From contig KZ537969.1 of assembly GCA_000934665.2 (NCBI GenBank), positions 124,001 through 188,000 of the forward strand: 64,000 nt of DNA. Direction: 5' to 3'. A model generated the notes under the pieces. The model did not search any database. It was not told the origin of the DNA and was given only the letters and a program-made list of their open reading frames with translations. How positions within the stretch are numbered: position 1 is the stretch's first letter; each line of letters begins with the position of its first letter. The translations under genes were made by a program, and so were the position numbers. Below are positions 2,673 to 5,615 of the stretch, one piece after another. Source of the stretch: Catajapyx aquilonaris (lineage: Eukaryota).

Positions 2673-2792
2673 ATGCCAAGTGCACCCGGCATTCCTAGGC
2701 GGTCACCCATCCAAGTACTACCCGGGCCCGACGTTGCTTAACTTCGGGGATCGGACGAGAACCGGTGCTTTCACCGTGGTATGGCCCTTGGC
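2673..2792 (-). rRNA. 5S rRNA: 5S rRNA, full-length copy A
   Basis: Reverse complement reads GCCAAGGGCCATACCACGGTGAAAGCACCGGTTCTCGTCCGATC...GTAGTACTTGGATGGGTGACCGCC...CTTGGCAT, followed by a T-run Pol III terminator. Confidence 0.96.
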
Positions 2793-2895
2793 GAGAGGGT
2801 GAGTGGATTGTGGGGGTACTTGGATCGAGTATGTGTGGGTAAGAGTATCAGTGTACAGTACACTTATCACATCCTCTCTCCCATCTCGTATCTCA

Positions 2896-3002
2896 GCTAA
2901 GGGGCATACCGCGTTGAGAGCACCGGTTCTCGTCCGATCAACGAAGCTACGAAGGTGGTAGGTCCCGGGACCCCGGGTAGTACTTGGATGGGCAACATTT
3001 TT
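2896..3002 (+). pseudogene. Diverged, 3'-truncated 5S rRNA copy B, head-to-head with copy A
   Basis: GCTAAGGGGCATACCGCGTTGAGAGCACCGGTTCTCGTCCGATCAACGAAG...CCCGGGTAGTACTTGGATGGG, then a premature T-run; internal insertion and substitutions. Confidence 0.85.
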
Positions 3003-3107
3003 ACCTTCGGTGATCCGGTGCTTTTGGTGATCCAGTTTCCAGTGTACAATTTTGTGAGGAGTGAATACCCCCTTGATTTTTGCCTTATCCATTTTTAAAA
3101 AAAAGAT

Positions 3108-3444
3108 CCATTCATCCCCTCTCCCCCGTGGACTGCCCACCCTCCTCCTTTTTGACAGTTCCCGCCAGGAATCGATCGACTCCTGGCAGCTTCCCGCCTC
3201 CAGATGGCGCTGGCGTCGGACTCTCGTTACGCATCTTCTCCGATTTATCCCACTACAATGCGAATTAATATTGTCCATTGCACGTGTGAAAAAGTGGCCT
3301 GAGACTGCACAGCATCCGGCCCAATTACCCCCGCCCTCTTTAAATGACCAATTAAATTTGCCAGAGCCTTTCGATGGGTGTGGTGAAGGGTGCGAGCGCG
3401 TCCCTTCCCGTGATGGAGAGGGACCTGGGTGAGATGGGAAAAGC
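3108..3444 (+). promoter_or_regulatory. snRNA upstream promoter region of U5
   Basis: Near-identical inverted copy upstream of U1 (4933-5271); both end TGGGAAAAGC immediately before the snRNA start ATACT. Confidence 0.8.
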
Positions 3445-3561
3445 ATACTCTGGTTCCTCTTCAATCCTCGTGTAAATCTTTCGCCTTTTACTAAAGATTT
3501 CCGTGGAGAGGTACACTCTGAGTCTTATGTAATTTCTTGTCGCCTGCCTGGAGCAGGCGGA
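3445..3561 (+). ncRNA. U5: U5 spliceosomal snRNA
   Basis: ATACTCTGGTTCCTCTTCA...AAATCTTTCGCCTTTTACTAAAGATTTCCGTGGAGAGG (invariant loop I GCCTTTTAC); Sm-like site AATTTCTTG; 3' hairpin CGCCTGC/GCAGGCG. Confidence 0.95.
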
Positions 3562-3635
3562 TAAACAAATCAAAAGACAATACTCAAATTACACAGGTGG
3601 GCCACGAATGATCGGTCGGCGTGACTGCTCCAAGC

Positions 3636-3832
3636 TGCCGTGATACTAAATATATAATATTACCGTGATAATTTAATTTAATTTAATTTTATAATATTAC
3701 CGTGATAATATATAATATAATATTTTATATTTATATTTATATATGTTAGGTATGGTTAGGTTGGGTTAGTACATCGTACCCCTACCCCCGATTGTACCCC
3801 CTACCCCCCTACGTTGTACCCCCTACCCCCCG
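3636..3832. repeat. Low-complexity tandem repeats: ATAATATTACCGTGATAAT units, TTAGG-like units, TACCCCCTACCCCCC x3
   Basis: Directly visible tandem units. Confidence 0.7.
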
Positions 3833-4768
3833 ATGCTGAGGTAGGGCAGCAATATACTGACAGTGAGCAGGTTTGCATTTGCATCATTCATTAGCTGTGA
3901 CTCTACTGAAGCACCCGTAGCAGCAGGGACTAGCGCAAAAAAAAAAGTTCGGCTCCCGCTGCCTGAATCGTGTCCTAGAGCGCGTCCAACACCCGCATGT
4001 GACGTCACGGCGGGAGAGCGGTGATGCGCATTCGGACGCGCCAGTTGAGCCGAGGTAGGGTTAAGGAATACGCTACAATGTAATGAGGGCATTACCATGG
4101 AAATCTATGAATATTGTTAAATAGGTAATTGATAATTGGTTAATTGGGAATATGCGTGTTATGGATGTTAGGTTCATTTTCGGAAGCTGAAACATGCGGC
4201 ATTAAATTCCTTGAAAAATGTAACTCCCGATATGCTAATTTAAGGCGGTGTAGGGGCCTTCCCCCGGATTTCTATAAGGGACAAACATCCAAACTGACAA
4301 ACTTCCTTATTTATAGAGATAGAGATTTTGTCTGTATGGGCATAAAAATCATTTGACATTATGCCATTGTGGGAATGATTTATTGACGATTTTGATTCCG
4401 CATTTTCGTTTAAAGGTACTGTACTGTTAAAATTCATGTTGATCGATAAATTTTATACACAGGTGAAGTCATTTATTGGTTGGATCCGCACCAAATGACG
4501 TCCACGTTTAAGTATTTAATTTACGTGTGCACAATGGCCAATTTGAAAAACTACACGGATCTAGTAACATTGTCATATGTAAATGTACAGTACTTGTGAA
4601 GGGAAAAAAAGTAGACAATACGAGACAGTATTACGTATTATTTACTTCACAAAATATGCCATACGTTACATTGCATATTGCAATACGTCACATACTTTTG
4701 TAACCCAGGCAGACCCAGGTACGGTCATACCGCGGATACTTTCAGGTATTGTCTTTTGATTGATTGAT

Positions 4769-4932
4769 CGGGGGTTAGCGCGAACGCAGTCCCCCACTAC
4801 CAGAAATAACGCACTCGAGTTATCCACATTTGGGATAATCGCAGGGGTCAACCCAACCGTAGTGCAATGGAAGGGCCTCGCCCTGGGACAACCGCCTTGG
4901 TGATCAAGGTATGTCCCGTGCCAGGTAAGTAT
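4769..4932 (-). ncRNA. U1: U1 spliceosomal snRNA
   Basis: Reverse complement reads ATACTTACCTGGCAC...GATCACCAAG...CCATTGCACT...Sm-like site ATTTCTG...GTAGTGGGGGACTGCGTTCGCGCTAACCCC. Confidence 0.97.
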
Positions 4933-5271
4933 GCTTTTCCCACTGCCCACGGTCGCTCTCCATAGCGGGAGGAGACAAGCTCGCACCCCTTAGCCACACC
5001 CATCGAAAGGCTCTGGAAAATTAATTGGTCATTGAAAGAGGGAGGGGGTAATTGGACCGGATGCTGTGCAGTCTCTGGCCTCTTTTTCACATGTGCGACG
5101 GGCAATATTAATTCGCATTGTTGTGGGATAAATCGGAGAAGATGCGTAACGAGAGTCCGACGCCAGCGCCATCTGGACGTGGGAAGCTGCCCGGAGACGA
5201 TCGATTCCCGGCGGGAACAGTAAAAAGAGGGGAGAGGGTGAGTGACTGGAGGGGGGAGAGGGGATGAATGG
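4933..5271 (-). promoter_or_regulatory. snRNA upstream promoter region of U1 (inverted copy of 3108-3444)
   Basis: Long shared blocks such as TCCAGATGGCGCTGGCGTCGGACTCTCGTTACGCATCTTCTCCGATTTATCCCAC. Confidence 0.8.
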
Positions 5272-5337
5272 GACATGCAAATAAAGTATGAATAAGATCA
5301 CTCTTGATAAGATACACTAAAAGCGAGACTAAAAGAG

Positions 5338-5372
5338 TTGCCAAGTGCATTCAACGTGGTATGGCCCTTGGC
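5338..5372 (-). pseudogene. Internally deleted mini-5S (5' and 3' ends of 5S fused)
   Basis: Reverse complement reads GCCAAGGGCCATACCACGTTGAA-TGCACTTGGCAA followed by CTCTTTT. Confidence 0.8.
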
Positions 5373-5495
5373 TGAGATACGAGATGGGAGAGAGGCTGTG
5401 ATAAGATTAGTGTACTGTGCTGTGCAGTGTACTCACCATACCCGCACATAGCCACATACTCGATCCAAGTACCCCCACAATCCACTCACTCTCTC

Positions 5496-5615
5496 GCCAA
5501 GGGCCATACCACGTTGAAAGCACCGGTTCTCGTCCGATCCCCGAAGTTAAGCAACGTCGGGCCCGGGTAGTACTTGGATGGGTGACCGCCTAGGAATGCC
5601 GGGTGCACTTGGCAT
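5496..5615 (+). rRNA. 5S rRNA: 5S rRNA, full-length copy D
   Basis: 120-nt 5S sequence differing from copy A at one visible position (CCACGTTG vs CCACGGTG), followed by CATTTT. Confidence 0.96.

What the first reader, a model, noticed from the sequence alone, without database searches (positions are those of the whole stretch)
2673..5615. Palindromic 5S-U5-U1-5S cassette linking Pol III rRNA and Pol II snRNA genes
Seen: the arms 2673-3449 and 4928-5615 are largely inverted copies. Each has an outward-facing intact 5S, a ~100-120 bp spacer, a decayed inward-facing 5S and a ~340 bp promoter. One arm drives U5 and the other U1, convergently. Known: 5S-snRNA linkages are reported sporadically in crustaceans, molluscs and fish, usually as tandem repeat units. 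Inference: a mirror-symmetric cassette with two different snRNAs and head-to-head 5S pairs is an unusual architecture, possibly a dispersed amplifying module maintained by arm-to-arm gene conversion.
Basis: partly seen in the sequence, partly recalled or inferred. Interest (0 to 1): 0.72.

Follow-up and report, generated by a model that had tools for sequence, protein, structure and literature searches.

The report
U5 gene with borrowed U1 promoter
Two splicing-RNA genes (U5 and U1) face each other between two 5S ribosomal RNA genes, and the locus looks mirror-symmetric because this U5 copy carries the 5S-plus-promoter block that elsewhere in the genome sits only in front of U1 genes, likely gained by a one-off recombination, which makes it a small variant of a known kind of gene linkage.

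Summary
The anatomy is real: 5S(-), U5(+), U1(-), 5S(+) all pass Rfam, with decayed inward 5S copies and 87%-identical 340-bp promoters. The interpretation mostly fails. The shared arm is the genome's ordinary U1 upstream module: all 7 other near-full copies lead into U1. Of 12 full-length U5 genes with readable upstream DNA, only this one has it. The arms are not homogenised: their promoter identity ranks 27th of 36 pairs, and the left decayed 5S shares lesions with another locus (C97), not with the right arm. No second mirror cassette was found. Convergent U5/U1 relatives with the normal U5 promoter exist (C7684; remnant at C691). Best reading: a promoter swap at the shared U1/U5 start in a convergent locus, within a family whose parts are shuffled often. 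Read contigs support the left arm up to 29 nt before the junction; the junction itself is unverified. 5S-snRNA linkage is known. Scan look-ups by sequence and words found no earlier report. Side finding: a young LINE sits just before snRNA-type starts (6 of 20 copies versus 1 of 288 windows).

The parts
2674..2792 (-). Outer left 5S rRNA gene, full length, one private substitution at gene position 19 (window 2774) that Rfam marks as breaking a pair; T5 run after the 3' end
2793..2895 (.). 103-bp spacer between the head-to-head 5S starts; the first ~43 bp are the upstream flank shared by snRNA-linked 5S copies
2896..2996 (+). Decayed inward 5S (79% over 2896-2992); shares private lesions with the decayed 5S at C97
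2997..3107 (.). Gap between decayed 5S and promoter; C97-type, not like the right arm
3108..3444 (+). U1-type upstream region (P1) in front of U5; closest to the U1 promoter at C7327 (93% over 313 nt); 7 differences from the U1 copies in the last 25 nt
3385..3403 (+). Inferred proximal sequence element (PSE): the block conserved at -55/-56 before U1 and U5 genes of this genome
3445..3560 (+). U5 snRNA gene, 100% identical to three other copies and 99% to most others
3561..3584 (+). Inferred 3' box of U5 (core 3568-3581); the same motif follows U1, U2, U4 and U12 genes here
3585..4745 (.). Non-symmetric centre: U5 tail (to 3646) and 4325-4512 shared with C7684, C691 and (tail) C17166; 3647-4324 is a patchwork with pieces found at unrelated loci (repeats)
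4746..4768 (-). Inferred 3' box of U1 (core 4748-4761)
4769..4932 (-). U1 snRNA gene, identical to five other full-length copies
4933..5271 (-). Ordinary U1 upstream region (P1); 99% identical to C5677 over the last 240 nt
5339..5372 (-). 34-nt remnant of the inward 5S: first 23 nt joined to last 11 nt
5373..5495 (.). 123-bp spacer; 98% identical to the spacer at C1194
5496..5614 (+). Outer right 5S rRNA gene, identical to the commonest copy; T4 run after the 3' end

Best explanation
The locus is a face-to-face U5/U1 gene pair in which U5 carries a U1-type upstream block (head-to-head 5S pair plus U1 promoter), likely gained by ectopic recombination that replaced its own promoter at the six bases shared by the U1 and U5 starts. 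Shown: gene content; the block in front of U5 belongs to the U1 promoter group; the two arms have different closest relatives elsewhere in the genome; convergent relatives with the normal U5 promoter exist. Inferred: the ancestor resembled C691/C7684 (5S<, spacer, U5 promoter, U5> ... <U1 module); a C97/C7327-like U1 module was copied in, using the 5S and its flank as the left anchor and the shared start as the right anchor; the symmetry is a by-product. Predicted function: the two outer 5S genes would be read outward by Pol III from internal promoters, and U5 and U1 inward by Pol II from the PSE to their 3' boxes. The swap is likely neutral, because Pol II snRNA promoters use one PSE-binding machinery (established knowledge, recalled).
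For: All 7 other near-full P1 matches precede U1 (40 of 115 candidates were scored, the other 31 scored are partial repeats). Of 13 full-length U5 matches, 12 have readable upstream DNA: 9 have the U5-type promoter P5 (one behind a LINE insert), 2 a third type, 1 (this one) P1. In a tree of 20 promoters this one falls inside the P1 clade (98/98) and P5 forms its own clade (99/99). Left decayed 5S + gap: 186 of 213 positions match C97 against 67 for the right arm; left P1 is closest to C7327, right P1 to C5677. C7684 has P5-U5> ... <U1 and shares the U5 tail (97%) and 188 bp of the centre (98%); C691 has 5S<, the same spacer start, P5-U5> and the same centre. The right arm is itself recombinant: promoter like C5677, U1 tail like C7327/C7684. 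Only 6 bases are shared at the junction, too short for a k-mer misjoin (inference). Read contigs match 2300-2688 exactly in 4 of 4 runs and 2806-3094 or more exactly in 4 of 4, at depth 22-40; one run has a contig over 3259-3416 with 1 mismatch and no gap, spanning four left-arm-private sites.
Against: No exact donor is in the assembly: the left arm is a mosaic (C97-like, then C7327-like at 90-93%). The direction of change between C691 and this locus is inferred from majority, not from a rooted test. The assembly is fragmented (20,583 contigs), several modules end at contig edges (C1194, C13727, C5677, C17166), so collapsed further copies are possible. Expression is not shown. The perfect U5 sequence does not prove selection, because the swap may be recent and the donor already diverged.
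Confidence: 0.6

Rival explanations
1. Microhomology-mediated deletion: the left side was once a tandem unit 5S pair-P1-U1 ... P5-U5, and a deletion between the identical starts of U1 and U5 fused P1 to U5. Same end product, different route.
For: Tandem P1-U1 ... P5-U5 units exist at C23, C5677 and C12821. One junction is enough, and the two starts share 6 bases.
Against: In those three units the U5 tail matches this locus for under 30 nt, while the convergent family matches for 86 nt or more. The left arm's closest relatives (C97, C7327) have a U1 tail type that is not followed by a tandem U5 in the DNA seen. The needed ancestor is not in the assembly.
Confidence: 0.18
2. Assembly chimera: the P1-U5 join or the inversion is an assembler error between repeats.
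For: Fragmented assembly; repeated parts; no read contig over the junction; only one P1-U5 join among 12 U5 genes.
Against: Only 6 shared bases at the join; the last 25 nt carry 7 differences seen in none of 8 U1 promoters, so they cannot be borrowed from a known U1 copy; contigs confirm the left arm up to 3416; the U5-to-U1 centre is collinear with C7684; no N in the cassette.
Confidence: 0.08
3. One reading: a local inverted duplication whose arms are kept alike by arm-to-arm gene conversion.
For: Outer 5S genes 99% and their first 43 bp of flank 98% alike; one 80-nt spacer window of the left arm is closest to the right arm. Other small-RNA inverted pairs in this genome do have 88-99.5% arms.
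Against: Arm pair ranks 27 of 36; 0 to 1 minority sites link the arms while 5 link the left arm to C7327 and 6 link the right arm to C5677; best match is the other arm in 1 of 23 windows; 5S identity is genome-wide; the shared spacer tract is also at C1194.
Confidence: 0.06
4. A mobile composite element: 5S-capped arms act as terminal inverted repeats and move the snRNA pair.
For: Parts are dispersed with unrelated flanks; C61 has 384-bp, 99.5% inverted 5S arms around 2.6 kb of unrelated DNA; part of P1 is the core of many MITE-like repeats.
Against: No second full copy; a 10-bp direct repeat seen by eye on both sides lies at unequal distances (about 17 and 65 bp) from the 5S ends, and the right flank continues as inherited 5S flank shared with C691; no transposase tied to the cassette.
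Confidence: 0.04

Closest known systems
5S rDNA linked to U1, U2 and U5 snRNA genes in Solea senegalensis (Manchado et al. 2006; seen only as cited in passages and reference lists of PMC3464664, PMC8167085, PMC4696792)
   Same: 5S, U1 and U5 genes in one small unit
   Different: Described there as tandemly repeated linkage; here dispersed, variable units, head-to-head 5S pairs with one decayed member, convergent snRNAs, no U2. I could not read the original for gene orientations.
5S-U1 linked units of the isopod Asellus aquaticus (Pelliccia et al. 2001) and razor shells (Vierna et al. 2011); seen as cited in passages and reference lists of PMC3215682 and PMC8167085
   Same: An invertebrate 5S gene next to a U1 gene and its upstream region
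   Different: Here the 5S is doubled head-to-head and the module also serves one U5 gene. Originals not held.
5S-U1-U2 tandem unit of the coral Acropora pruinosa (PMC8167085, passages read)
   Same: 5S plus two different snRNA genes
   Different: Head-to-tail tandem array seen by FISH; no mirror layout or promoter exchange mentioned in the passages read.
Linked snRNA pairs (U2-U5 in fishes; U1-U2, U2-U5, U4-U5 in Drosophila) (PMC3464664, passages read)
   Same: Different spliceosomal genes adjacent, each with PSE and 3' box
   Different: In the fish unit U2 and U5 each keep their own PSE region; here one U5 has a U1 upstream region.
Birth-and-death evolution of 5S rDNA (PMC3215682, abstract and passages read)
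   Same: Near-identical coding regions, divergent spacers, pseudogenes beside intact genes
   Different: Here extended to shuffling of whole promoter modules between two snRNA types.

Membership tests
5S rRNA gene (RF00001) | Full-length match above gathering score, with a T-run terminator | tested here: met
   Both outer copies 97 and 101 bits, model 1-120; T5 and T4 runs. Inner copies fail: not reported at gathering score.
Pol II spliceosomal snRNA genes (RF00003, RF00020) | Full-length coding match | tested here: met
   U1 154 bits, U5 83 bits
Pol II spliceosomal snRNA genes (RF00003, RF00020) | Conserved element about 55 bp upstream and 3' box just downstream | tested here: met
   Conserved block at -56 (U5) and -55 (U1); 3' box motif 45 hits against 5 for the reversed control, found after U1, U2, U4, U5, U12. 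Identified by conservation, not by binding.
Pol II spliceosomal snRNA genes (RF00003, RF00020) | Transcription from this locus | not testable with these tools
   Coding sequences are identical to other copies; needs nascent-RNA or ChIP data.
5S-snRNA linked units | 5S and snRNA genes physically linked and the link repeated in the genome | tested here: met
   5S within about 1 kb of U1 or U5 at C97, C4777, C23, C5677, C691 and here
5S-snRNA linked units | Head-to-tail tandem array of one uniform unit | tested here: inconclusive
   Assembled units are dispersed and differ in order; a collapsed array cannot be excluded in a 20,583-contig assembly.
Conversion-maintained palindrome | Arms more alike than paralogues elsewhere | tested here: not met
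   Rank 27 of 36; 1 of 23 windows
Composite or non-autonomous DNA transposon | Several full copies with common ends and target-site duplications | tested here: not met
   One full copy only; no flanking duplication abutting the arms

The most novel reading that the evidence does not exclude
snRNA transcription starts in this genome are recombination hot points: a LINE that inserts 7-13 bp before snRNA starts supplies breaks there, and repair swaps whole upstream modules (5S pair plus promoter) between different snRNA genes, so this locus is a functional, natural U1-to-U5 promoter swap caught beside its parents, and the LINE is a position-targeted (not sequence-targeted) snRNA-promoter parasite.
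Probability: 0.15. Interest if true: 0.65.

Novelty: new variant of a known kind. Interest (0 to 1): 0.3.

Why it matters
5S-snRNA linkage arises repeatedly in animals, and how such units form is usually guessed. Here the parents, intermediates and product lie in one genome, so module shuffling can be traced base by base. If the junction is real and transcribed, it is a natural test that U1 and U5 upstream regions are interchangeable in vivo. It is one locus among about a dozen U5 copies with identical products, so the biological effect is probably nil. The LINE side finding may matter more than the cassette.

Tried and rejected
Arm-to-arm conversion: rejected. Second mirror cassette: none in searches with promoter (40 of 115 candidates scored), U5 (19 of 19), U1 (16 of 16), 5S plus spacer (40 of 42). 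P1 or 5S next to U2, U4 or U12: none in 12 of 20 U2 loci, 6 of 6 U4 loci and 1 U12 locus checked; U6 was not searched. Allelic flanks: no other fetched locus matches the flanks beyond 55 bp. No contig cover at 3417-3466 and thin cover at 3275-3416: a hole proves nothing. Summed 5S depth is not a copy number and was not used. The 268-aa stop-to-stop frame at 2718-3524(-) runs across the RNA genes and was not pursued. A full-length copy of the LINE with its reverse transcriptase was not found, so its clade is open. Literature: searches for 'mixed clusters' of 5S and U1, crustacean opposite-strand linkage, U1/U5 promoter conversion and LINE preference for snRNA starts returned 0 papers; the library lacks most subscription papers, and Vierna et al. 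2013 and Anjos et al. 2015 were not held, so absence from print is not established.

Full report
Observation. Rfam finds four genes in the window, all in the finding: 5S 2674-2792(-), U5 3445-3560(+), U1 4769-4932(-), 5S 5496-5614(+). The arms are inverted relatives. Segment by segment they match at 99% (outer 5S), 98% (first 43 bp of 5S flank), about 73% (spacer), 34% (decayed 5S plus gap), 87% (promoter) and 73% overall (the spacer boundary used there is 5 nt off the later one). The left inward 5S is a 79% relic; the right one keeps only its first 23 and last 11 bases. The centre is asymmetric except for the two 3' boxes.

Context. The window is G000:C20:124001-188000, in a 286-Mb assembly of 20,583 contigs. 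A protein of the window has its best hits in polyneopteran insects at 54-57% identity, then other invertebrates, so the organism is likely an arthropod; that is a best-hit placement, not a tree.

What the shared arm is. Searching the genome with the left promoter gave 9 near-full matches among 40 scored of 115 candidates: the two here and 7 others (83-93%), and all 7 lead into U1. So the shared 340 bp is the ordinary U1 upstream region, P1. The U5 search gave 19 matches of 19 candidates, 13 full-length; 12 have readable upstream DNA. Nine carry a different promoter, P5 (one of them behind an insertion, one only 67% alike), two carry a third type, and only the window's copy carries P1. In a tree of 20 promoters (the two third-type U5 promoters, pseudogenes and fragments left out) the window's U5 promoter sits in the P1 clade (98/98) and P5 is a separate clade (99/99). 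U1 has a second promoter type at C1170 and C321. The head-to-head 5S pair is also an existing feature of the U1 module: seen whole at C97, C4777 and C23, and in part at C5677. In the five whole pairs, counting the two here, exactly one member is full length and near-perfect: the outer in 4, the inner in 1 (C23). No P1 or 5S was found beside U2 (12 of 20 loci checked), U4 (6 of 6) or U12.

Are the arms kept alike? No. Over the last 240 nt the arm pair is 88% identical and ranks 27 of 36 pairs among nine P1 copies; the right arm is 99% identical to C5677; the left shares 5 minority sites with C7327 and none with the right arm. The left decayed 5S and gap match C97 at 186 of 213 positions and the right arm at 67 (alignment). 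In 80-nt windows the opposite arm is the best match in 1 of 12 (left) and 0 of 11 (right). The 5S identity is genome-wide: most full copies equal the right 5S.

Parents. U1 and U5 are neighbours at six other loci: U1 then U5 at C23, C5677, C12821; U5 then U1 at C97, C11499; convergent at C7684. C7684 has P5-U5 facing a 5'-truncated U1 and shares the U5 tail (97%) and 188 bp of the centre (98%) with the window. C691 has an outward 5S, the same spacer start, P5-U5, the same tail and centre, and no U1 before the contig ends. C17166 has the identical 86-nt tail but starts at U5 position 8. The right arm is also recombinant: promoter like C5677, U1 tail like C7327 and C7684. I infer that a C691-like locus took a C97/C7327-like U1 module between the 5S flank and the 6 bases that the U1 and U5 starts share. 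The last 25 nt before U5 carry 7 differences from the U1 copies, including a 1-nt insertion that puts the PSE at -56, as in 7 P5 promoters, not -55, as in 10 U1 promoters. A deletion from a U1 start to a downstream U5 start gives the same product and is the main rival; its ancestor is not in the assembly.

Artefact check. Four DNA runs hold the stretch, all one sample and one study, kept as contigs. I laid 2300-3466 only. Contigs match 2300-2688 exactly in 4 of 4 runs, and 2806-3161 exactly in 3 of 4 (one in two pieces; the fourth to 3094), at depth 22-40; one run has 3259-3416 with one mismatch and no gap, across four left-arm-private sites; the P1 truncation seen at C7327 shows up as a loose end. 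Nothing covers 3417-3466, so the junction, the centre and the right arm remain unchecked by reads. The 6-base overlap and private bases argue against a misjoin (inference).

Function. Both outer 5S genes have T-runs; the left has one private change at position 19. U5 and U1 are identical to other copies and have the conserved -55/-56 block and 3' box. All four are predicted to be expressed; this is not shown. A perfect U5 does not prove selection, since the swap may be recent. That Pol II snRNA promoters share one machinery is recalled knowledge.

Inverted small-RNA pairs are common here: C61 (384-bp arms, 99.5%), C56 (150 bp, 97%), C7031 (1.1 kb, 94%), a U2 pair on C97 (776 bp, 96.5%) and C155 (548 bp, 88%). 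A mirror layout as such is not exceptional in this genome.

Known. 5S-snRNA linkage is reported for oysters, sole (U1, U2, U5), an isopod (U1) and a coral (PMC8167085, passages read; PMC3464664, PMC3215682, PMC4696792, passages read). The primary papers and the metazoan survey were not held. Searches for a U1/U5 promoter exchange found nothing, a weak negative. Scan look-ups by sequence and words found no earlier report of this module; two genome look-ups showed other snRNA notes only (8 of 207 and 8 of 786 shown).

Side finding. The insertion at C97 is the 3' end of a young LINE with an RNase H domain and a short tandem-repeat tail. It ends 13, about 11 and about 7 nt before the starts of U5 (C97, with a 13-bp duplication), U1 (C3322) and U2 (C16289). 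Of the 21 best copies, 7 have a 3'-box motif within 400 nt downstream; without the seed copy 6 of 20, against 1 of 288 background windows (Fisher p 2e-7). The motif pattern was built after seeing these loci and two of the six hits are one-mismatch matches, so the p-value is optimistic; 14 of 21 copies show no box. Kojima and Jurka list only Keno, Utopia, Dada-U1 and Dada-U6 as snRNA-targeting (PMC4640811, passages read, 2015), and Utopia inserts inside U2. A link between this LINE and the swap is speculation.

Verdict. Real locus, new variant of a known kind. Mirror symmetry is a by-product of module shuffling, not of arm-to-arm conversion. Interest 0.3.

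Noticed in passing
L099:7471-7790 (C97), L058:1690-1809 (C3322), L117:1-110 (C16289), L136, L137, L138: Young RNase-H LINE whose 3' ends sit 7-13 nt before U5, U1 and U2 starts, between PSE and gene at C97; 6 of 20 further copies have a 3' box within 400 nt versus 1 of 288 background windows. Possible position-specific targeting of snRNA promoters; clade not determined.
   Followed up: partly
L010-L030 (matches to window 3180-3397): About 220 bp of the U1 promoter, including the PSE-like block, followed by a LINE-like 3' tail, forms the common core of several MITE-like repeat families with different ends (31 of 40 scored matches; high read depth at 3236-3274). 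Direction of capture inferred as promoter to repeat.
   Followed up: partly
L137 (C13645), L199 (C4457), L178 (C352), L194 (C2776): Short (about 95-100 nt) candidate genes with a terminal hairpin and 3' box, three of them with an Sm-like site, and no Rfam match at the thresholds used; candidate unannotated Sm-class RNAs.
   Followed up: partly
L095:3406-6828 (C61): Tandem 5S pairs as 384-bp, 99.5% inverted arms around 2.6 kb that appears to hold a small secreted-protein gene; no N gap. Similar at C56.
   Followed up: partly
L119:1364-3052 (C97); L109:1830-5002 (C7031); L174/L175 (C155): Divergent inverted pairs of U2 genes, 5S genes and unidentified 3'-box genes with 88-96.5% arms.
   Followed up: partly
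window 57179-61970 (+): ATRR-like multidomain reductase gene (adenylation, thioester reductase, short-chain dehydrogenase domains); homologues across invertebrates, best in polyneopteran insects.
   Followed up: partly
window 7186-8830 (-) and 9900-12365 (-): Tc1/mariner-like transposase remnants (DDE_3 and HTH hits); the two DDE regions are 74% alike over 72 nt.
   Followed up: no
window 14227-15009 (-): C2H2 zinc-finger exon.
   Followed up: no
window 2774: Private substitution at position 19 of the left 5S, not seen in the other full copies compared.
   Followed up: no
L101:6440-6480 (C691): U5 3'-end remnant with 3' box downstream of the outward 5S, inverted relative to the intact U5.
   Followed up: no
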